This document shows positions 6,214 through 28,799 of a stretch of DNA of 37,281 bases, one piece after another; positions within the stretch are counted from its first letter, which is position 1; each line of letters begins with the position of its first letter. The notes beneath the pieces were generated by a model. The model was not told the DNA's origin and did not search any database. It saw nothing but the letters and a program-made list of their open reading frames with translations. This stretch comes from Gaiellaceae bacterium (GTDB lineage: Bacteria > Actinomycetota > Thermoleophilia > Gaiellales > Gaiellaceae). The position numbers were made by a program, and so were the translations under genes. Location: contig DATIER010000026.1 in the NCBI GenBank assembly GCA_035455605.1, positions 1-37,281 of the forward strand, written 5' to 3'.

Positions 6214-7032
6214 ATGCCCGTGCTGCGGCTGCCCGAGCCGTTCGACTTCGAGCTCTCGACCGAGCGCTTTCGATCGTTCGGGTCCGACCTCGCGAACCTC
6301 TGGGCGGACGGCGCGATCCACCGCGTCGTCGGCGCGCGCGAGGTGCGCATCGAGCCGGCCGGCCGCGGCGTCCGCGTCGACCCGCTGGACGACGAGACGC
6401 GCCCGGTCGTGCTGAAGCTGCTCGGCGCCGAGTTCGACCTGCGCGCGTTCTACGACTGGGCGCAGGGCGACCCGGTGCTCGCGCGGCTGACGCGGGAGCT
6501 CGCGGGCTACCGGCCGCCGCTGGCGCCCGACCCGTTCGAGACGCTCGTCACCTCGATCACGGCCCAGCAGGTCTCGCTCTTCGCCGCGGTCGCGATCCGC
6601 AACCGGCTGGTCGAGCGCTTCGGCCGCCGGATCGGGCAGGCGTACTCCTTCCCCACCGCGCGCCGGCTGCGGCGGGCGAGCGAGAACGAGCTGCTCGCGC
6701 TCGGCTTCTCGCGGCGCAAGACGGAGTACGTGCTCGGCCTCGCGCAGGAGCCGATCGATCTCGCCGAGCTCGCGGCTCTTCCCGACGAGGAGGTGAAGCG
6801 GCGCCTGGTCTCGCTGCGCGGGATCGGCGCCTGGACGGCGGAGTGGTTCCTCGCCCGGCATCTCGCCCGGCCGCGCGCGTGGCCCGTCGGCGACATCGCG
6901 CTCGAGAAGGCCGTGCGCAGCTTCTACCCGGACGTGCGCGACCTCGAGTCGGCGCGCGACCGGTTCGCGCCGTTCCAGAACCTCTCGGCTCACTACCTCC
7001 TCACTGGGGCTAGGGTTGCGGCCGCCGCATGA
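6214..7032 (+). CDS. HhH-GPD superfamily DNA glycosylase (AlkA-like 3-methyladenine DNA glycosylase II)
   Basis: FETLVTSITAQQVSLFAAVAIRNRL is followed by the helix-hairpin-helix LVSLRGIGAWTAEWFL and the catalytic-Asp region WPVGDIALEKAV. ATG at 6214. Confidence 0.85.
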   Translation: MPVLRLPEPFDFELSTERFRSFGSDLANLWADGAIHRVVGAREVRIEPAGRGVRVDPLDDETRPVVLKLLGAEFDLRAFYDWAQGDPVLARLTRELAGYRPPLAPDPFETLVTSITAQQVSLFAAVAIRNRLVERFGRRIGQAYSFPTARRLRRASENELLALGFSRRKTEYVLGLAQEPIDLAELAALPDEEVKRRLVSLRGIGAWTAEWFLARHLARPRAWPVGDIALEKAVRSFYPDVRDLESARDRFAPFQNLSAHYLLTGARVAAAA

Positions 7033-7967
7033 ACGTTCGCGAAGCAACCGCCGCCGACGAGCAGACGCTGCTCCGCTTCACGCGCGAGCTCTTCGACGAG
7101 AACTGGCAGCGCCCGTGGCGTCCGCCCGAGGTCACGACGAGCATGTTCGAGGGCAAGCTCGTGCTCCTCGCCGAGGACGACGGCGAGCCCGTCGGCTACG
7201 CCTTCGGCGAGCTCGACCCGCATGGCTACGCGCACGTGAACCTCGTCTACGTCGTCCCCGAGCGCCGGCGCCGGGGCGCGACGACGGCGCTGCTGAAGGA
7301 GTTCGCCGCCCGTGCGCGCGAGGCCGGGATCGGGCACCTGACCCTCGACGTCGCGACCGACAACATCGTCGGGCGCGAGGTCTGGCGTCGGCTCGGCTTC
7401 AGCGAGTGGTCGCAGCGGCTGCTGGTGCCGGTCGAACGGCTCGAGCAGCACGGGCTGGCGGGCGAGTCGTACGCGTCGCTGCACGTGCAGACGGACGCGC
7501 GCGAGGCGGTCGAGGCGGCGGTCGCGAAGTACCTGCCGCGCTTCGGCGGCTCGGGCGCCGCGGTCGAGGGCCCGCGCAACGGCTGGGTCGCCGTCTACGC
7601 CGAGCTCGTCGACCGCGACCGCCGCGCGCGCGAGCGGCTCGCGTCGGAGCTCTCGAACGCGCTCGCCGCGGTCGTCTGCGCGATCGGCGTCGAGGACGGC
7701 GCCGTCGTGCGCTACGTGCTCTACGAGCGCGGCAGCGTCGTCGACGAGTACCAGTCCGTTCCGGAGCACTTCGGGCCGCTGCCGCCCGGTGACGTGGTCG
7801 CGCTCGGCGCCAACCCGACGGTCGTCTCGCGGCTGACCGGCGCCGACCCCGGCAGCGTGCGCGCGGTCGCACGCACGGCCCCCTCGCCGGACCAGCTGCC
7901 GCCCGCCGACGAGCTGCTCCAGCAGCTCGCCGAGGTGCTGGGGCTCGAGGGCGCGGGCCGCCGGTAG
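7029..7967 (+). CDS. GNAT-family N-acetyltransferase fused to an uncharacterised C-terminal domain of about 170 aa
   Basis: The N-terminal 140 aa has the GNAT core (VGYAFGEL..., VYVVPERRRRGATTALLKEF..., GREVWRRLGFSE). I do not recognise a family for the C-terminal half. ATGA overlap with the upstream gene. Confidence 0.8.
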   Translation: MNVREATAADEQTLLRFTRELFDENWQRPWRPPEVTTSMFEGKLVLLAEDDGEPVGYAFGELDPHGYAHVNLVYVVPERRRRGATTALLKEFAARAREAGIGHLTLDVATDNIVGREVWRRLGFSEWSQRLLVPVERLEQHGLAGESYASLHVQTDAREAVEAAVAKYLPRFGGSGAAVEGPRNGWVAVYAELVDRDRRARERLASELSNALAAVVCAIGVEDGAVVRYVLYERGSVVDEYQSVPEHFGPLPPGDVVALGANPTVVSRLTGADPGSVRAVARTAPSPDQLPPADELLQQLAEVLGLEGAGRR

Positions 7968-7976
7968 ATTCACGGG

Positions 7977-8546
7977 GTGCCGACGCTCTACACCGCCGAC
8001 CGCTGCCCGTACGCAGCCCGCGCGCGCATCACCCTCGCCGAGAAGGGGATCGCCTACGACGCGGTCGAGATCGACCTCGACGACCGGCCGGCGTGGATCT
8101 ACGAGAAGAACGAGCTCGGCCGCGTGCCGGTATGGGAGGAGGACGACGGCCTGCTCCTCCCCGAGTCCGACGTGATCATGGAGTACCTCGACGAGCGCTT
8201 CCCTGAGCCGGCGCTGTGGCCGGCCGACCCGGCCGAGCGGGCGCTCGGGCGGCTCTGGGTCGAGCGGTTCGACCGGCGGCTCGGGGACGCGTACTACGCG
8301 GCGCGCCGCGGTGACGGGCGCGAGGAGCTCGACACGCGCCTCGGCGACCTCGACCGCGCGCTCGAGGCGCAGCCCTGGCTCTCGGGCCGCGAGTACGGCC
8401 TCGCGGACATCGCGTACGTCCCGTGGATCCTGCGCGGCCTCGAGCGGTACGGGCTCGAGCTGGGGCCGTCGCTTGCGGACTGGCTCGCGCGCTGTTCCGC
8501 CCGTCCGGCGATCGCGCAGGAACGTGTGGTCGTGGCCGCGCTTTGA
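7977..8546 (+). CDS. glutathione S-transferase family protein
   Basis: LYTADRCPYAARARITLAEKGIAYDAVEIDL...GRVPVWEEDDGLLLPESDVIMEYLDERFP is the GST N-terminal thioredoxin-like fold. It is followed by a helical C-terminal domain. GTG start. Confidence 0.85.
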   Translation: MPTLYTADRCPYAARARITLAEKGIAYDAVEIDLDDRPAWIYEKNELGRVPVWEEDDGLLLPESDVIMEYLDERFPEPALWPADPAERALGRLWVERFDRRLGDAYYAARRGDGREELDTRLGDLDRALEAQPWLSGREYGLADIAYVPWILRGLERYGLELGPSLADWLARCSARPAIAQERVVVAAL

Positions 8547-8547
8547 T

Positions 8548-8711
8548 GAGCCTCTCCCGAGCCGAAGCGTTGTGCCGCCGGAGCGCGCTGTGTGACCCGT
8601 GGACGGCGTCCTCAGTCGCGCCCGTAGCCTCTGGCTACGCGCGCTCCCTGCGTCCTTGCCACGTGCCACCCATCGCGCTCCGGCAACGAAGCTTCAGCTC
8701 GGAAGAGGCTC
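8548..8711. other. 164-nt rod-like imperfect inverted repeat: candidate structured RNA or MITE-like element
   Basis: Arm 8548-8568 pairs with 8691-8711 at 19 of 21 positions. Then 8569-8571 pairs with 8685-8687, and 8577-8587 pairs with 8673-8683 at 11 of 11. Next come roughly 10-nt unpaired stretches on both sides, a 5-bp stem (8598-8602 with 8659-8663) and an internal hairpin at 8617-8643 (CGTAGCC-TCT-GGCTACG). The element fills the gap between the GST stop (8546) and the hydrolase GTG (8713) exactly. Confidence 0.55.
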
Positions 8712-8712
8712 T

Positions 8713-9399
8713 GTGAAAATCGTCCTGCTGCACGCGTTTCCGCTGGACGAGCGGATGTGGGAGCCGCAGCTCGAGCCGCTGGGCGAGCACGACCTCGCGG
8801 CGCCTCGTCTCTACGGCCGCGGCTCGACGATCGCCGAGATCGCGTCGTCCCTGTTCGACGAGCACGAGGGCGAGCTGGCGCTCGTCGGCGCGTCCTTCGG
8901 CGGCTACGTGGCGTTGGAGATGGCGCACCAGGAGCCTTCGCGGATCCGGGCGCTCGTCCTCGTCGGCGCGCGTGCGGATGCCGATACGCCCGAGCGGCGC
9001 GCGGCCCGGGCAGACACGATCGCGCTGATCGAGGACGGTGGCGCAGAGGCGCTCTGGGAGAAGCAGCGGCCGCTGCTGTTGCTCGAGGACGCTCCGGAGA
9101 CTGCCGTCGCGCACGCACGGCAGGAGGCGCTCGGCCGTTCGAGCGACGAGCTCGTGGCCGCCGTCGGCGCGCTGCGCGACCGCGCCGATCGCACGGACAC
9201 CTTGCGCGCCTTCGGCGGGCCGGTGCTGGTCGCGGTCGGCGAGGGCGACGGCTTCTTCCCGCCGGACGAGGCCCGGGCCCAGGCGCAGCTCGCGCGGCAC
9301 GGCCGGTTCCGCGAGTTCGCCGGCGCCGCGCACCTGCCGAGCCTCGAGCGGCCGGACGAGTTCAACGCGGCGCTGGCCCAGTTCCTCGGCGATGTCTGA
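8713..9399 (+). CDS. alpha/beta-fold hydrolase
   Basis: VKIVLLHAFPLDERMW... has the nucleophile elbow LVGASFGGYVAL (GxSxG) and a C-terminal His region GAAHLPSLERPDEF. GTG at 8713 is preceded by GGAAGAGG. I reject the 8599-8712 part of the ORF. Confidence 0.85.
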   Translation: MKIVLLHAFPLDERMWEPQLEPLGEHDLAAPRLYGRGSTIAEIASSLFDEHEGELALVGASFGGYVALEMAHQEPSRIRALVLVGARADADTPERRAARADTIALIEDGGAEALWEKQRPLLLLEDAPETAVAHARQEALGRSSDELVAAVGALRDRADRTDTLRAFGGPVLVAVGEGDGFFPPDEARAQAQLARHGRFREFAGAAHLPSLERPDEFNAALAQFLGDV

Positions 9400-14017: not shown

Positions 14018-14833
14018 GTGGATCCCCGGCCGGTCGGCGTGTTCGACTCGGGCGTGGGCGGGCTGACCGTCCTGCACGAGTGCCTGGTGACGATGCCGCA
14101 CGAGGACTTCGTCTACCTCGGCGACCACGCGCGGCTGCCGTACGGGCCGCGGCCGCTGGCGGAGATCCGGGGCTTCGCCCGCGAGATCGCCGCCTACCTC
14201 GCCGCCCAGGACGTGAAGCTCGTGCTCGTCGCGTGCAACTCGGCCACGGGCGCCGCGCTGCCGCAGCTGCAGGAGGAGCTCGAGGTGCCGGTCGTCGGTG
14301 TGATCACGCCCGAGGCGCACGCGGCGGTGCAGGCGACGCGCAACCGGCGGATCGGGCTGCTCGCGACCCAGGCGACGGTCGACGCCGGCCGCTACGCGGA
14401 GCTCGTGCACGCGCTCGACGCCGGCGCCGAGCTCGTCCCGGTCGCGTGCCCGCGGCTCGTGCCGCTGATCGAGAGCGACGACCCGTTCGCGGCCGAGACC
14501 ACCGAGGCCGTGCGCGAGTACGCCCGTCCGCTGAAGGACGCGGGCGTGGACACCGTGATCCTCGGCTGCACGCACTACCCGCTGATCCGCCCGATCTTCC
14601 AGCGCGTCTTCGGTCGCGGTGTCACGCTCGTCTTCTCGGCCGAGGAGACGGCGCGCGAGGTCGCCGAGACGCTCGCCCGCAAGGGGATTGAGAACGACGA
14701 GGGCCGCGAGGGCGCCTACCGCTTCCTCACCACGGGCCACCCGGCGGCGTTCCGCGCGCTCGGCGAGCGGTTCCTGCAGCTGCCGCTGGACGAGGTCGAG
14801 CACGTCGCCGTCTCGGATCTCGTGGCGGCATGA
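14018..14833 (+). CDS. murI: glutamate racemase
   Basis: It contains VFDSGVGGLTVL and the two catalytic-Cys motifs VACNSATGAAL and LGCTHYPL. Confidence 0.93.
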   Translation: MDPRPVGVFDSGVGGLTVLHECLVTMPHEDFVYLGDHARLPYGPRPLAEIRGFAREIAAYLAAQDVKLVLVACNSATGAALPQLQEELEVPVVGVITPEAHAAVQATRNRRIGLLATQATVDAGRYAELVHALDAGAELVPVACPRLVPLIESDDPFAAETTEAVREYARPLKDAGVDTVILGCTHYPLIRPIFQRVFGRGVTLVFSAEETAREVAETLARKGIENDEGREGAYRFLTTGHPAAFRALGERFLQLPLDEVEHVAVSDLVAA

Positions 14834-21780: not shown

Positions 21781-22728
21781 GTGACCGTGACCATGAACGC
21801 GGCGATCGACCGCACGCTCACCGTCCCGAACTTCCAGCGCGGCCAGCGCCACCGCGCGAGCGCCGGGCTCACGCTCGCCGGCGGCAAGGGGATCAACATC
21901 GCGCGCGCGCTGAAGCGGCTCGGCGTGCCGGTCGTCGCGACCGGCCTCGCGGGCGGGCGCACCGGCACGCGCATCGTCGAGGAGCTGACCTCCGAGGCGA
22001 TCCTGAACGACTTCGTCCGCATCGACGACGAGTCGCGCACCTCGACCGCGATCGTCGACCCGACGGGCGGCAGCTACACCGAGGTGAACGAGTGGGGGCC
22101 GCACGTCTCGGGCGAGGAGCTGGAGATGCTGCTCGAGAAGCTGGTCTACCTCTCGCAGGGCGCCGACTACGTCGTCTTCGCCGGCTCGCTGCCGCGCGGG
22201 ATCGAGGACGACTTCTACGCCGAGGCCGTCCGCGAGCTGAACCGCCGCGGCGCACAGACGGTGCTCGACTCGGAAGGCGAGCCGCTCCGCCTCGGCGTCC
22301 AGGCCGAGCCGCTGCTCGTCTCGCCGAACGAGCGCGAGGCCGAGGCGCTCGTCGGGCAGGAATTCAACGACGACGACGACTTCCTGACGGGGCTCGAGAC
22401 GATCGCCGAGCTCGGCGCGCGCAACGTCCTGATCACGCGCGAGTCCGGCTGCTGGGCGCTGCTGCGCTCGGACCGGCACGCGAGCCGCTACCGCGCCGAG
22501 GCGCCGCGCGTCGAGCCCGTCTCCGCCGTCGGCTCGGGCGACGTGCTGCTCGCGGCCTTCGTCGCCGCCCGCCTCGACGGCCGCTCCGACGAGGAGGCGC
22601 TGCGGGCGGCCGTGGCCGCCGGCGCGGCGTCGACGTTCGAGATTGGCGCGGGCCGCTTCGAGCCGCGGGAGGCCGGGCGCCTCGTCGGCTCGATCGAGGT
22701 CTCGCAACTCGAGCCCGTCGCGGACTAA
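21781..22728 (+). CDS. PfkB-family sugar-phosphate kinase (1-phosphofructokinase / tagatose-6-phosphate kinase-like)
   Basis: It contains (V)[36 protein letters not shown] and [14 protein letters not shown]. The start is either GTG at 21781 or ATG at 21793. Confidence 0.85.
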
Positions 22729-22763
22729 AGGGCTTTCCGGGACGCGCCGATATCTGGCTGGCG

Positions 22764-24257
22764 ATGAATCGCCAGCGCCTGCCCGTGGTGCTGTCTGCGG
22801 CGGCTCTTCTGATCGCCCTGCTCAGCGCCACCCCGAACGGGGTCGCCGCGCTCACCGGCGGCGCCGCCCGCGTCGCCCTGTTCGCGAAGAACGCGGCCAA
22901 GGTCGGCGGCATCGCGGCCTCGAAGAAGCCCAGGGCCGGCAAGCTGCTCCCGCTGGGCAAGAACGGCAAGTTTCCGGCGTCGGTGATCCCGCGCGGCGGC
23001 GCGGCCGGACCGGCCGGCCCCGAGGGCGCGCGCGGCCCCGCCGGCCCGATCGGGCCGCAGGGCCAGCAGGGCATCCCCGGCCAGAAGGGCGCCAGGGGCG
23101 CCACCGGCCCAGCCGGGCCGCAGGGCGCGACCGGCCCGCAAGGCTCCGTCGGGCCCCCCGGCGGCTTCGGGCTCCTGAACCTCGCCCGCGCGAACGTCGT
23201 CAGCCGCGCCCTCGCTGCCAACGGCGCCCATTCGTCCGTCGTCGCCGGCGCGGACGGCCTCCCGCTCGTCGCCGTCTTCGCCTCCGGCCCCGACGACCTG
23301 CAGGCGGTGCACTGCGCCGACGCCACGTGCGCCTCGGCGACCACCACGACCCTGGACTCGAGCGGCAACGTCGGCGACTTCCCCTCGGCGACGGTCGGCG
23401 CCGACGGGCTCGGCGTGATCTCGTACGTCGATCTCACGAACGGCACGCTGAAGGTCGCGCACTGCACGAGCCTCGCGTGCACCGCCGCCGGCCTGACCAC
23501 GCCGGACGCCTCGGGCAACGTCGGCGCGCAGACCTCGATCACGGTCGGCACCGACGGCCTGCCGCTGATCAGCTACTACGACGCCGCGAACAAGAACCTC
23601 GTCGTCGCCCACTGCTCGACCCTCGCGTGCTCGAGCGCGACGCCCACGGCGATCGACAGCACCGGTGACGTCGGGCAGGACTCGTCGATCGCGATCGGCG
23701 CCGACGGGCTCGGCCTCGTCAGCTACCGCGACGCGACGAACGGGCACCTCAAGGTCGCGCACTGCGCCGACGTGGCGTGCAGCTCCGCGACCGCGACGAC
23801 GCTCGACTCCGGCACGAGCGTCGGCGGCTCCACCTCTGTCACCGTCGGCGCCGACGGCCGCGGCCTGGTGGGCTACTTCGACAACGGCAACGCGAACCTG
23901 AAGGTCGCCCACTGCTCGGACGTCGCGTGCAGCGCGGCCATGGCCGCGACGGTCGACTCCGCGAGCCTCGTCGGGGAGTACGCGTCGATCTCCGTCGGGA
24001 TCGACGGCCTCGGCGTCGTCTCCTACTGGGACCACTCCGCCGCGCGGAACCTGAAGGTCGCGCACTGCGTCGACGTCGCGTGCTCGGCGGCGACGACGGC
24101 GGTGGTCGACAGCCCCAACGACGTCGGCTCGTTCAGCTCGCTCGCGATCGGCGCCGACGGCCTGCCGCTCGTCACCTACCGCGACGTGACGAGCAACGAC
24201 GTCCGGGTCGCGCACTGCCCGAACGCCTTCTGCGTCGGGTACCTCCGGCGACGCTGA
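22764..24257 (+). CDS. membrane-anchored/secreted collagen-like protein with a C-terminal array of seven 50-aa Cys-pair repeats (predicted beta-propeller)
   Basis: The N-terminal hydrophobic anchor is [17 protein letters not shown]. It is followed by [17 protein letters not shown] and 18 uninterrupted G-X-Y triplets (aa 79-132). Then come 7 repeats of the type DSxGxVGxxxSxxVGADGLxLxSYxDxxNxxLKVAHCxxxxC. Confidence 0.85.
22998..23162 (+). repeat. collagen-like G-X-Y triplet repeat (coding)
   Basis: The stretch reads [55 protein letters not shown]. Gly occurs at every third residue without interruption. Confidence 0.9.
23211..24254 (+). repeat. seven tandem repeats of about 150 nt (50 aa), coding
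   Basis: The H-C dipeptides fall at aa 183/184, 233/234, 283/284, 333/334, 383/384, 434/435 and 484/485. The period is 50,50,50,50,51,50. Each is followed by a second Cys at exactly C-x4-C. Confidence 0.85.
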
Positions 24258-28258: not shown

Positions 28259-28799
28259 CGAGCGCTTGCGCCGTGCCCGGATCGGCGCGACCTTCAACTT
28301 CTATCGCGACGGCGAGCGCGCTGCCGAGCGATGCGAGCGGCTTGCCGCGTACCTCGGCGCCCGGGAGCAGGCGCCCCTCCTGCTCGTCGGCGAGGCCGCG
28401 GGGTACCGCGGCGCCCGCGTCTCGGGCATCCCGTTCACCTCCGAGCGGCAGCTCACGGGCAGCGGCCCGGGCGAGGCGACCGCGACGATCGTGCGGCGGA
28501 CGCTCGCCGAGCTCGGCCTCGAGGAGGAGACGCTCTGCTGGAACGTCGTCCCGACGCACCCGCACCTGCCCCGCCGGCACGACACCAACCGCCGCCCGAC
28601 CCGGGCCGAGATCGAGGCCTCGCGTCCGTTCCTGCGCGAGCTCGCCCGCGGGCGCTCGGTGGTCGCCGTCGGGCGCCTCGCGGAGCGCGTCACGGGTGCG
28701 CCCTACCTCCGGCACCCGAGCCACGGCGGGGCGGCCGAGTTCCGCGCGGGGCTGCTAGCATTCCGGCCCGGCGGACGGCGAGTCTGCCGCTTTTTATGA
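28239..28799 (+). CDS. uracil-DNA glycosylase superfamily protein (family 4/5-like motifs)
   Basis: [23 protein letters not shown] resembles UDG motif A (GEAPG...G.PF). The C-terminal HPSHGG resembles motif B (HPS). ATG at 28239. Its stop overlaps the rplM start (ATGA at 28796-28799). The start is uncertain because it overlaps the divergent PLD start by 20 nt. Confidence 0.65.
28770..28795 (+). promoter_or_regulatory. hairpin plus T5 tract immediately 5' of the rplM start codon (terminator/attenuator-like or leader structure)
   Basis: GGCGGAC-GGCGA-GTCTGCC is a 7-bp stem with one G.U pair. It is followed by GC and TTTTT (28791-28795), then ATG at 28796. A run of five T is conspicuous in this GC-rich DNA. 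No purine-rich Shine-Dalgarno sequence is present. Confidence 0.4.

What the first reader, a model, noticed from the sequence alone, without database searches (positions are those of the whole stretch)
8548..8711. 164-nt rod-like inverted-repeat element exactly filling the GST/hydrolase intergenic gap: candidate structured RNA or MITE
Pairing seen by hand:
- 8548-8568 pairs with 8691-8711 at 19 of 21 positions.
- 8569-8571 pairs with 8685-8687.
- 8577-8587 pairs with 8673-8683 at 11 of 11 positions.
- A roughly symmetrical internal bubble follows, about 10 nt per side.
- Next is a 5-bp stem, 8598-8602 with 8659-8663.
- An apical hairpin lies at 8617-8643, with a perfect CGTAGCC-TCT-GGCTACG core.

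The element begins 1 nt after the GST stop and ends 1 nt before the hydrolase GTG. The hydrolase Shine-Dalgarno sequence (GGAAGAGG, 8701-8708) is base-paired to an anti-SD-like CCTCTCCC (8551-8558).

Both mismatches in the outer stem are C.A on the plus strand. They would be G.U wobbles on the minus strand. This hints, from only 2 observations, at an RNA transcribed antisense.

The closing stem, central bubble and terminal stem, together with the length, are reminiscent of 6S-like RNAs. I see no diagnostic sequence motif, however. Alternatives are an SD-sequestering translational control element such as an RNA thermometer, an RNase III processing site within an operon mRNA, or a non-autonomous MITE. 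No ORF here looks protein-like.
Basis: partly seen in the sequence, partly recalled or inferred. Interest (0 to 1): 0.65.

Follow-up and report, generated by a model that had tools for sequence, protein, structure and literature searches.

The report
Palindromic insert bridging two coupled genes
A 170-base hairpin-forming insertion sits exactly where two neighbouring genes of a soil actinobacterium normally overlap by four bases, and it carries a small bridging reading frame that probably lets ribosomes still pass from one gene to the next; it is a tolerated, MIRU-like piece of selfish DNA, not a new RNA gene.

Summary
Window 8548-8711 is a 164-nt rod-like palindrome. It folds at -101 kcal/mol on the + strand and -120 on the - strand (z -8.7 and -10.8).

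It is the core of a 170-nt insertion (8543-8712). In all 10 independently sampled related lineages the GST stop and hydrolase start overlap by 4 nt (CT|GTGA), with no gap. Only four carriers were found: the window, two MAGs and one metagenome contig. All four carry the insert at this same junction, with hairpins of 164, 164, 104 and 56 nt.

One frame (8546-8716, 56 codons) is open across the insert in every carrier.
- Its start overlaps or abuts the GST stop (TGATG, TAATG, TAAATG, GTGA).
- Its stop overlaps the hydrolase GTG (GTGA).
- Both internal deletions are in frame.
- The peptide itself is not conserved.

The best reading is a MIRU-like/MITE-like palindromic insert that preserves translational coupling. 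The hairpin buries a weak Shine-Dalgarno (SD) sequence. 6S-like RNA and RNA thermometer are rejected, and no Rfam family matches. It is not a detectable multicopy family.

Two things remain unexplained:
- The element is more conserved (89-94%) than the flanking genes.
- All 10 wobble-type sites favour pairing on the minus strand.

The parts
7977..8546 (+). GST-like gene (189 aa). Its stop TGA is at 8544-8546, followed by a second in-frame TGA at 8547-8549.
   Evidence: Pfam GST_N_3 5.9e-21 and GST_C. The ORF is listed. Orthologues are 189 aa.
8543..8712 (+). The 170-nt inserted segment relative to the empty site CT|GTGA. It reads T + TGA (new GST stop) + T + 164-nt palindrome + T.
   Evidence: Filled and empty junctions were compared side by side in 4 carriers and 9 empty loci.
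8538..8546 (+). Left copy of the flanking direct repeat, GCGCTTTGA (tetranucleotide version TTGA, 8543-8546).
   Evidence: 7 of 9 positions match the right copy GCTCTGTGA, read directly from the sequence. This is a possible target-site duplication that duplicated the overlapping stop/start.
8708..8716 (+). Right copy of the flanking direct repeat, GCTCTGTGA (tetranucleotide version GTGA, 8713-8716). It contains the hydrolase GTG and the bridging ORF's TGA.
   Evidence: It is identical to the GST 3' end of empty sites L003 and L041 (GCTCTGTGA).
8548..8711 (.). The 164-nt rod-like palindrome (the finding).
   Evidence: Folds. It is 91% identical to L006:3490-3653. Shortened derivatives of 104 nt and 56 nt occur in L012 and L008.
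8548..8568 (+). 5' arm of the outer stem. It includes the anti-SD-like CCTCTCCC (8551-8558) and is the most conserved part of the element.
   Evidence: 20 of 21 positions are invariant in the 4 carriers.
8691..8711 (+). 3' arm of the outer stem, containing the SD-like GGAAGAGG (8701-8708).
   Evidence: The motif has decayed to GGAAGAGA in L012.
8546..8716 (+). Bridging ('relay') ORF of 56 codons, MSLSRAEALCRR...SEEAL*. Its ATG overlaps the GST stop (TGATG) and its TGA overlaps the hydrolase GTG (GTGA).
   Evidence: The frame is open, with the same overlaps, in all 4 carriers (56, 56, 36 and 20 codons). In the window all five other frames contain stops; in L006 and L012 the hydrolase frame is also open across the element. 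The 60-nt and 108-nt deletions are in frame. The peptide has no database homologue.
8598..8663 (.). Apical third, including the CGTAGCC-TCT-GGCTACG hairpin at 8623-8639. It is dispensable (absent from L012 and L008) yet 97% identical to L006.
8713..9399 (+). Alpha/beta-hydrolase gene (228 aa, GTG start).
   Evidence: Pfam Abhydrolase_6 9.8e-17. Of the 120 best homologues, 115 are 228 aa and all align over 100% of the query. Empty sites have no SD-like sequence upstream of the start.

Best explanation
The hairpin is the core of a 170-nt palindromic insertion (8543-8712). It landed in, or was copied into, the 4-nt stop/start overlap (CT|GTGA) that joins a GST-like gene and an alpha/beta-hydrolase gene in one operon of a Gaiellaceae-like actinobacterium. 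It is best described as a MIRU-like/MITE-like selfish or relic element. It persists because it rebuilds the translational coupling that it interrupted.

Shown by the sequence:
- The insert supplies a new stop codon for the GST.
- It supplies a small ORF (8546-8716) whose start overlaps that stop (TGATG).
- The small ORF's stop overlaps the hydrolase start (GTGA, the ancestral -4 arrangement).
- The hairpin pairs the weak SD-like GGAAGAGG with an anti-SD-like 5' arm and places the stop and start codons 1 nt from the base of the helix.

Inferred:
- The element is co-transcribed with the operon.
- Ribosomes finishing the GST re-initiate on the bridging ORF, unwind the rod as they translate it, terminate on the GTGA and re-initiate on the hydrolase.
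- On untranslated mRNA the rod keeps the hydrolase start closed, so the hydrolase stays dependent on upstream translation, as in the empty-site relatives, which have no SD at all.
- The encoded peptide is a by-product with no function of its own.
For: Insertion, not a conserved spacer:
- All 10 related hydrolase lineages fetched by protein look-up (22 contigs) have GST and hydrolase overlapping by 4 nt (junctions).

One locus only:
- Exact-arm scans of genome contigs and metagenome contigs gave 3 further real copies (L006, L008, L012). All are at this same junction. Every other hit is a lone arm with no partner.

Bridging ORF:
- In all 4 carriers one frame is open from a start codon that overlaps or abuts the GST stop (TGATG, TAATG, TAAATG, GTGA) to a TGA that overlaps the hydrolase GTG.
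- In the window the five other frames contain stops.
- The two internal deletions (60 and 108 nt) are both multiples of 3.
- In L012, TGA changed to CAG and ATG to GTG together, which re-created a GTGA overlap.

Peptide is unconstrained:
- 9 of 56 residues differ for 15 nt differences, and it has no homologue among 5.8 billion proteins.

Coupling is needed here:
- Empty sites have no SD-like sequence before the hydrolase start, and L012's SD has decayed.
- -4 overlaps recur along the contig.

Co-transcription is plausible:
- No promoter-like or terminator-like site was found on either strand in 8200-9100.

Precedent:
- MIRUs insert at start codons so that an internal ORF is coupled at -4 nt. 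They have tetranucleotide direct repeats and GC-rich internal inverted repeats (PMC12548453 and PMC3184786, both citing Supply et al. 1997).
- Here the flanks are TTGA/GTGA, or GCGCTTTGA/GCTCTGTGA at 7 of 9 positions.
Against: - There is no expression data of any kind. Translation of the bridging ORF is inferred only.
- An open 56-codon frame in 70%-GC DNA is not rare by itself. My rough estimate, from base composition and not from a tool, is about 0.3. In L006 and L012 the hydrolase frame is also open across the element.
- The four carriers are related, so their shared features are not four independent observations.
- A ribosome would have to unwind a -100 kcal/mol rod.
- If only the frame mattered, the sequence should drift. 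Instead the element is 89-94% identical between carriers whose flanking genes are 78-84% identical.
- The dispensable apical 66 nt are 97% identical between the window and L006.
- Non-Watson-Crick transition pairs all favour the minus strand, 10 sites to 0. That is not what selection for an mRNA hairpin predicts, although it would fit selection to weaken one.
- No source family or transposase is known, and mobility is not demonstrated.
- Covariation is not significant with 4 sequences: 177-181 of 500 shuffles do as well.
Confidence: 0.55

Rival explanations
1. It is a cis-acting mRNA structure that works without translation of the small ORF. The rod sequesters the SD and start region, and the ribosome terminating at the GST stop (1 nt from the helix base) melts the outer stem and frees the SD. 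This is the 'RNA unfolding' model of coupling. Alternatively, the rod is an RNase III or other processing site, or a stabiliser, that uncouples the two halves of the operon mRNA.
For: - The anti-SD/SD pairing and the 1-nt spacing on both sides are conserved in all carriers.
- The outer stem is kept in the 56-nt and 104-nt derivatives, while the interior is lost.
- The RNA-unfolding model is well documented (PMC12548453).
Against: - The SD is weak (GAGG with a 4-nt spacer) and has decayed in L012.
- The mismatches that accumulated are C.A on the mRNA strand, not G.U. So mRNA pairing is being eroded, not maintained: 83% of cells are standard pairs on the + strand against 92% on the - strand.
- This model does not explain the in-frame deletions or the conserved start codon on the GST stop.
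Confidence: 0.2
2. The biologically relevant hairpin is on the minus strand. It could be an antisense structured RNA, or the active single strand of an element that moves or recombines as ssDNA, as in IS200/IS605-type elements, REP/RAYT or integron attC sites. That would explain a site-specific, patchy distribution.
For: - In a register fixed by geometry, 10 sites carry C.A on + (which is G.U on -) and 0 carry G.U on + (p = 0.002).
- The minus-strand folds are 6-29 kcal/mol more stable in all four variants.
- The outer helix is 96% standard pairs on - against 84% on +.
- Background synonymous changes run the opposite way: C>T 4 against G>A 0 on +.
- One pair runs A-T / A.C / G-C.
- The element is more similar between carriers than their flanks are, and the window's flanks are native up to the junction: 93-94% to empty-site L038 against 76-84% to the carriers.
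Against: - No promoter-like site on the minus strand, and no neighbouring minus-strand gene.
- Transversion mismatches (9 sites) are about as common as C.A sites, which is not expected if the minus-strand helix were strongly selected.
- The interior is deleted in two carriers.
- No other copy, donor copy or associated transposase or recombinase was found. There are no attC core sites by inspection and no HEARO or other Rfam match.
- The same asymmetry is predicted if selection simply weakens the + strand mRNA hairpin.
Confidence: 0.12
3. It is an ordinary non-autonomous MITE of a multicopy family whose other copies were missed. The bridging ORF and the SD are incidental.
For: - 21-nt terminal inverted repeats, no coding capacity for a transposase, filled versus empty sites and a possible target duplication.
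- It folds into a long stable RNA hairpin, as is typical of MITEs (PMC3184786).
- The scans needed an exact 21-mer, and the MAGs are incomplete.
Against: - The two species-representative MAGs that carry it (L006 and L008 records) gave one hit each across all their contigs.
- 241 million metagenome records added only one further copy, at the same locus.
- There is no second copy in about 55 kb of carrier DNA or about 420 kb of related and other fetched loci.
- The 5' arm 21-mer is invariant in all known copies apart from one C/T position that the scan patterns allowed, so diverged copies should often have been caught.
Confidence: 0.1
4. It is a stand-alone regulatory RNA of a known class: a 6S-like RNA or an RNA thermometer.
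For: Only the overall shape (a rod of about 164 nt) and the SD pairing.
Against: - No 6S or thermometer family appears even at E <= 10. The only hit is a generic long-hairpin match to plant MIR1437, 44 bits against a gathering score of 168.
- There is no open central bubble.
- The element is absent from nearly all relatives, and its interior is deleted in two carriers.
- The outer stem is still paired at 80 C in silico.
Confidence: 0.02

Closest known systems
MIRU (mycobacterial interspersed repetitive units; Supply et al. 1997, as summarised in PMC12548453 and PMC3184786)
   Same: - The host is an actinobacterium.
- The element sits in an intergenic junction inside an operon.
- Empty sites exist in relatives.
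- It has short (tetranucleotide) flanking direct repeats.
- It has GC-rich internal inverted repeats.
- An internal ORF has ends that overlap the flanking genes' stop and start, so the downstream gene is coupled at -4 nt.
   Different: - MIRUs are 40-100-bp units, often in tandem, at about 40-50 copies per genome.
- This element is one 164-nt near-perfect palindrome, with 104-nt and 56-nt deletion forms.
- It was found at a single locus only, in Thermoleophilia.
- Sequence relatedness to MIRUs was not tested.
Bacterial MITEs that fold as long RNA hairpins and are co-transcribed with neighbouring genes (Correia/NEMIS, ERIC, Nezha, Chunjie; PMC3184786)
   Same: - Size of 100-200 nt.
- Terminal inverted repeats and a rod-like RNA fold.
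- Filled and empty orthologous sites.
- Internal-deletion size variants.
- A location next to stop codons in transcribed spacers.
   Different: - Those are dispersed families with tens to hundreds of copies and a defined target duplication (often TA).
- Here no second locus was found, the duplication is ambiguous, and the insert exactly bridges a stop/start overlap.
Translational coupling by RNA unfolding or by a short 'delivery' ORF (review PMC12548453)
   Same: - The downstream start is closed by a structure that upstream translation opens.
- A short ORF has the sole role of delivering ribosomes to a -4 overlapped start.
   Different: - Known natural cases use short local structures or native leader ORFs.
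- Here both features are carried by an inserted palindrome, and the structure is extreme (about -100 kcal/mol).
Rickettsia palindromic elements (RPE; Ogata et al. 2000, listed in PMC3184786)
   Same: A palindromic insert of 105-146 nt is tolerated because it keeps a reading frame open. The peptide it encodes is incidental.
   Different: - RPEs insert inside protein-coding genes and are multicopy.
- This one lies between two genes as a separate mini-cistron.
REP elements close to stop codons (my own recollection of Liang, Rudd and Deutscher 2015; not checked here)
   Same: A stable hairpin starting within a few nucleotides of a stop codon can interfere with the terminating ribosome and alter expression of the upstream gene.
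   Different: REPs are about 35 nt and highly repeated, and they are not known to carry a bridging ORF. No such effect was tested here.

Membership tests
MITE | Terminal inverted repeats and no transposase gene, size about 50-500 bp. | tested here: met
   The 21-nt arms match at 19 of 21 positions. The element is 164 nt and holds only a 56-codon ORF with no homologues.
MITE | Filled versus empty orthologous sites. | tested here: met
   There are 4 filled loci. The 10 related lineages sampled by protein look-up (22 contigs) are all empty.
MITE | Target-site duplication flanking the inverted repeats. | tested here: inconclusive
   The candidates are TTGA/GTGA (3 of 4 positions) or GCGCTTTGA/GCTCTGTGA (7 of 9 positions). 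They are not adjacent to the inverted repeats in a unique way, and part of the repeat is functionally constrained as a stop or start codon.
MITE | Multiple dispersed copies per genome. | tested here: not met
   Exact-arm scans found one copy per carrier MAG, and all copies are at one locus. There is no second copy in the fetched DNA. Caveat: the scans required an exact 21-mer.
MIRU | Lies between co-transcribed genes, and an internal ORF's start and stop overlap the flanking stop and start (-4 coupling). | tested here: met
   The left overlap is TGATG, TAATG, TAAATG or GTGA, and the right overlap is GTGA, in all 4 carriers.
MIRU | Units of 40-100 bp, often in tandem, at about 40-50 copies per genome. 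| tested here: not met
   It is a single 164-nt palindromic unit at a single locus.
MIRU | Sequence similarity to the mycobacterial MIRU consensus. | not tested
6S RNA | Match to the 6S covariance models; a large open central bubble; conserved as a gene across relatives. | tested here: not met
   There is no 6S hit at E <= 10, no open bubble, and the element is absent from all 10 sampled related lineages.
RNA thermometer (ROSE, fourU and similar) | A weak SD-masking helix that melts in the physiological temperature range. | tested here: not met
   The MFE is -101 kcal/mol at 37 C, and the outer stem is still paired at 80 C at -31 kcal/mol. There is no Rfam match.
REP / RAYT-associated repeats | Hairpins of 20-40 bp with a GTAG or CGTC tag, at high copy number. 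| tested here: not met
   The element is 164 nt and single copy. A GTAG does occur in the apical hairpin (8624-8627), but that hairpin is deleted in two carriers.
Integron attC site | Inverse core RYYYAAC and core GTTRRRY at the ends; bottom-strand-specific fold. | tested here: not met
   The ends are GAGCCTC...GAGGCTC, with no AAC/GTT core sites by inspection. The strand asymmetry is the only shared trait.

The most novel reading that the evidence does not exclude
The element is a strand-specific, site-specific mobile hairpin. On this reading it is propagated or recombined through its minus strand (ssDNA or RNA) and homes to this one operon junction in different Gaiellaceae lineages. That would account for three observations: it is younger-looking than its flanks, it is patchily distributed with native flanks, and it carries only minus-strand wobble pairs. 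This would be a new kind of single-target mobile element whose bridging ORF is its way of being harmless.
Probability: 0.1. Interest if true: 0.75.

Novelty: new variant of a known kind. Interest (0 to 1): 0.4.

Why it matters
If the reading is right, this is a natural experiment in translational coupling. An operon junction that normally relies on a 4-nt stop/start overlap has been split by 170 nt of extremely stable hairpin. It appears to have kept its coupling through a peptide-irrelevant bridging ORF.

A graded series of in-frame deletions (164, 104, 56 and 0 nt) is available in nature. It extends the MIRU principle, in which elements survive in operons by carrying a coupled ORF, outside mycobacteria and to a palindromic element.

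For annotation, it warns that such rods between genes in GC-rich actinobacterial MAGs are more likely to be tolerated insertions than small-RNA genes.

The unexplained conservation and the strand-biased wobble pairs are worth a follow-up once more carriers or transcriptomes are available.

Tried and rejected
- **Rfam, whole window at gathering thresholds:** nothing.
- **Rfam, local permissive scan:** only a generic GC-rich long-hairpin match to plant MIR1437, 44 bits against a gathering score of 168.
- **Second copies:** repeat search and a 3-mismatch arm search in the window, and sensitive blastn against all fetched loci. None found.
- **Window proteins in the contig index:** not on record.
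- **Viral/mobile contig scans:** arm, apical and middle motifs. No real match, only chance 18-mers.
- **Protein searches for more carriers:** Nothing found.
- **Spread by homologous recombination with flanks:** rejected for the window. Its +/-120-nt flanks are 93-94% identical to an empty-site relative and 76-84% identical to the carriers.
- **Mutation bias as the cause of the C.A excess:** not supported. Four-fold-site changes run the other way, although the counts are small.
- **Covariation test:** not significant with 4 sequences, so I do not claim covariation support.
- **Promoter and terminator scan:** nothing on either strand.
- **Thermometer:** rejected.
- **The lone 21-mer in a Rhodothermales MAG (L007) and in 28 metagenome contigs:** chance matches without a partner arm.
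- **A covariance model of the core hairpin:** considered but not built. Only DNA already held could have been searched, and blastn had already covered it.
Full report
**1. The observation**

The region was read directly and folded on both strands.
- The + strand gives one rod-like hairpin of -101.4 kcal/mol (z -8.72 against 200 dinucleotide shuffles, none as stable).
- The - strand gives -119.5 kcal/mol (z -10.76).

- 8548-8568 pairs with 8691-8711 at 19 of 21 positions, and both mismatches are C.A on the + strand.
- 8577-8587 pairs with 8673-8683 at 11 of 11 positions.
- There is a 5-bp stem, 8598-8602 with 8659-8663.
- The apical CGTAGCC-TCT-GGCTACG hairpin is at 8623-8639.

The element starts 1 nt after the GST stop (8544-8546) and ends 1 nt before the hydrolase GTG (8713). 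GGAAGAGG (8701-8708) pairs with CCTCTCCC (8551-8558).

The arm 21-mer occurs exactly twice in the window, as the inverted pair, against 0.02 expected by chance.

Two corrections are needed.
- The 'bubble' is a series of short helices with single mismatches, not an open loop.
- The + strand energy alone is not exceptional for this 73%-GC contig. 164-nt windows average -78 +/- 10 kcal/mol, and several coding windows reach -103 to -111.

**2. Context**

The flanking genes are a GNAT acetyltransferase (7029-7967), a GST-like protein (7977-8546), an alpha/beta hydrolase (8713-9399) and a rhodanese. All are on the + strand.
- Of the 120 best homologues of the hydrolase, 115 are 228 aa and all align over 100% of the query, which confirms the GTG at 8713.
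- The one named homologue is from a Gaiellaceae MAG, in the Thermoleophilia of the Actinomycetota.
- No Rfam family reaches its threshold anywhere in the window.
- A permissive local scan gives only a generic match of the whole rod to a plant microRNA precursor model, 44 bits against a gathering score of 168.
- No promoter-like or terminator-like sites occur on either strand between 8200 and 9100.

**3. It is an insertion into a stop/start overlap**

I fetched the orthologous locus from ten hydrolase lineages at 74-89% amino-acid identity, 22 contigs in all. In every one the GST and hydrolase genes overlap by 4 nt.

The junctions compare as follows.
- Empty sites read ...GCN CT|G TGA..., or CTT TGA with a TTG start in L001, L002 and L051.
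- The window reads ...GCG CT + [T TGA T + 164-nt palindrome + T] + GTGA....

So 170 nt (8543-8712) are extra. The insert brings its own stop codon for the GST, the leucine codon changes synonymously from CTG to CTT, and the original GTGA remains as the hydrolase start.

The flanks form an imperfect direct repeat. This can be read as TTGA/GTGA, or as GCGCTTTGA (8538-8546) against GCTCTGTGA (8708-8716), which matches at 7 of 9 positions. That is what a target duplication spanning the overlapping stop/start would look like. It would also explain why both genes stayed intact. The duplication cannot be delimited unambiguously, however.

**4. Distribution**

Exact-pattern scans with the arm sequence gave the following.
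- Across 185,579 species-representative genomes there were three hits.
- Across 241 million metagenome records there were 29 hits.
- Only three hits are real, meaning the partner arm is present. All three lie at the same GST/hydrolase junction:
  - L006, an uncultured Actinomycetes MAG, 164 nt, 91% identical;
  - L012, a metagenome contig, 104 nt;
  - L008, a Gaiellaceae MAG, 56 nt.
- The remaining hits are lone 21-mers in unrelated contexts.

No copy was found in viral contigs. Sensitive blastn found none elsewhere in about 420 kb of fetched DNA.

Within the reach of these scans the element is therefore single-copy and locus-specific, not a dispersed MITE family.

The shorter forms are internal deletions. 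In L012, 60 nt are lost between CTGCG repeats. In L008, 108 nt are lost. Both keep the outer stem.

**5. The bridging ORF**

The window has TGATG at 8544-8548. The ATG at 8546 opens a frame that runs through the whole insert and ends with the TGA of the hydrolase's GTGA (8714-8716). This gives 56 codons, MSLSRAEALCRR...SEEAL.

The same frame is open in all four carriers (56, 56, 36 and 20 codons).
- Its start overlaps or abuts the GST stop in four different ways: TGATG, TAATG, TAAATG, and GTGA in L012. In L012, TGA became CAG and ATG became GTG together.
- Its stop always overlaps the hydrolase GTG.
- In the window the five other frames all contain stops; in L006 and L012 the hydrolase frame is also open across the element.
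- Both deletions are multiples of three.

The peptide is not conserved. Nine of 56 residues differ for 15 nucleotide differences between the window and L006. It has no homologue among 5.8 billion proteins.

Empty sites have no SD-like sequence at all upstream of the hydrolase start. The SD-like GGAAGAGG of the carriers has decayed to GGAAGAGA in L012. The stop/start overlaps are therefore the conserved feature, not the SD.

This is the architecture described for MIRUs in mycobacteria. Those elements insert at start codons so that an internal ORF is coupled to the downstream gene at -4 nt. They have tetranucleotide direct repeats and GC-rich internal inverted repeats (PMC12548453 and PMC3184786, both citing Supply et al. 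1997).

**6. Mechanism proposed**

Shown:
- the geometry of stop, ORF, hairpin, SD and start;
- the empty sites in relatives;
- the in-frame deletion series.

Inferred:
- The rod is co-transcribed with the operon.
- Ribosomes terminating on the GST re-initiate on the bridging ORF and unwind the rod while translating it.
- They terminate on GTGA and re-initiate on the hydrolase.
- On untranslated mRNA the rod keeps the weak SD and the start region closed.

Both recognised coupling models apply here, RNA unfolding and re-initiation (PMC12548453). The element would then be a tolerated selfish or relic insertion, not a regulator evolved for the host. I put this at about 0.55.

**7. What does not fit**

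*(a) Conservation.*
- The element is 89-94% identical between carriers. Their hydrolase genes are 78-84% identical, with 82-91% at codon positions 1 and 2 and 61-70% at position 3.
- The apical 66 nt, which are dispensable, are 97% identical between the window and L006.
- Positions unpaired in both folds differ at only about 13%.

*(b) Phylogeny.*
- Carriers are scattered on the hydrolase tree, and each has empty-site lineages as its nearest sampled relatives.
- Segment trees disagree, which indicates recombination in the region.
- Even so, the window's immediate flanks are native. They are 93-94% identical to empty-site L038 and 76-84% identical to the carriers.
- The pattern of shared substitutions (window apart from L006 and L012, with L008 only loosely placed) agrees with the GST tree.
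- This leaves two options:
  - an old insertion under unexplained constraint with many precise losses, which palindromes flanked by direct repeats are prone to;
  - a younger element that reaches this one site repeatedly.

*(c) Strand bias.*
- In a register fixed by geometry, 10 sites carry C.A on the + strand (equivalent to G.U on the - strand). None carries G.U on the + strand, and 9 carry transversion mismatches (p = 0.002 for 10:0).
- The pair-count tool gives 83.0% standard pairs on the + strand and 92.3% on the - strand. For the outer helix the figures are 84% and 96%.
- Lineage-private changes at four-fold sites of the flanking genes run the other way, C>T 4 against G>A 0. Background bias is therefore not the cause, although the counts are small.
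- Three readings remain:
  - selection for a minus-strand RNA or ssDNA hairpin;
  - selection to weaken the mRNA hairpin so that ribosomes can pass, which also fits the shrinking in-frame deletions;
  - strand-specific repair of G.T in hairpin DNA.
- Covariation proper is not significant with four sequences. Two pairs changed on both sides, and 177-181 of 500 shuffles do as well.

**8. Rejected identities**

- *6S-like RNA.* There is no 6S model hit at E <= 10, no open bubble, the interior is deleted in two carriers, and the element is absent from nearly all relatives.
- *RNA thermometer.* The outer stem is still paired at 80 C in silico.
- *attC, REP and HEARO-type elements.* The defining motifs are absent and there are no Rfam hits.
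- *Ordinary multicopy MITE.* This is not supported by the scans. It cannot be excluded without the complete carrier genomes.

**9. Verdict**

Its interpretation is partly right: the element is an insertion-like inverted repeat that masks the SD.

The element is best filed as a new variant of a known kind. It is a MIRU-like, MITE-like palindromic insert that bridges a translationally coupled gene pair with a peptide-irrelevant ORF. So far it is known from four uncultured Gaiellaceae-like genomes and only at this locus.

Interest is moderate (0.4). It is a neat natural case for translational coupling, with two real oddities, the conservation and the strand bias. About a 10% chance remains for something more unusual.

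Noticed in passing
window 22092-24257 (+), repeats 22990-23136 and 23296-24242: A 721-aa ORF has a collagen triple-helix repeat match (PF01391, 4e-07), followed by about five diverged 150-nt (50-aa) tandem repeats. Its GC-rich Gly-X-Y-type repeat DNA is the most stably folding stretch of the whole window on the minus strand (-123.6 kcal/mol per 164 nt).
   Followed up: partly
L018:3615-3720 and the same place in L022, L027, L031, L037: Five AT-rich (34-41% GC) metagenome contigs are the same locus from closely related organisms. They share a fully conserved GC-rich island of about 60 nt (GGAGCCTCTTCCGAGCCGAAGCCCAGAGCGAAGCGAGGGGTCAGTGAGGAATCTCCCC) in the spacer after a membrane-protein-like gene. 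It contains the same 21-mer as the element's arm, by chance. L018 has no Rfam match. It could be a small structured RNA or a terminator.
   Followed up: partly
L006 vs L012 (GST and hydrolase genes); segment trees: The locus is mosaic between lineages. L006 and L012 have 92% identical GST 3' regions but only 81.5% identical hydrolase genes. GNAT, GST, hydrolase and rhodanese give different trees. This points to recombination among these soil actinobacteria.
   Followed up: partly
L001:3971, L002:4667, L051:1501: One empty-site lineage uses TTG instead of GTG as the hydrolase start (CTT TGA overlap). This is exactly the sequence that would result from deleting the window's insert between its two TGA triplets. 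It could be a footprint of a precise loss, or just a G-to-T change.
   Followed up: no
L001:4657-4943: In L001 the rhodanese gene is called as 150 aa after a 285-nt gap. L002 encodes an identical hydrolase, and there (as in all other relatives) the rhodanese gene is 262 aa and overlaps the hydrolase by 8 nt. This is probably a frameshift or an assembly error in L001.
   Followed up: no
GST and hydrolase genes of window, L001, L003-L006, L008, L038, L040, L041: At four-fold degenerate sites, 23 of 30 lineage-private changes are G<->C transversions. All majority bases are G or C. Synonymous sites here are far from neutral, because A/T-ending codons are almost excluded.
   Followed up: no
window 7029-7032, 14830-14833, 28690-28693: Several other co-oriented gene pairs in the contig overlap by 4 nt, so stop/start-overlap coupling is the usual junction type in this genome. 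This comes from a rough GC3-based gene map.
   Followed up: no
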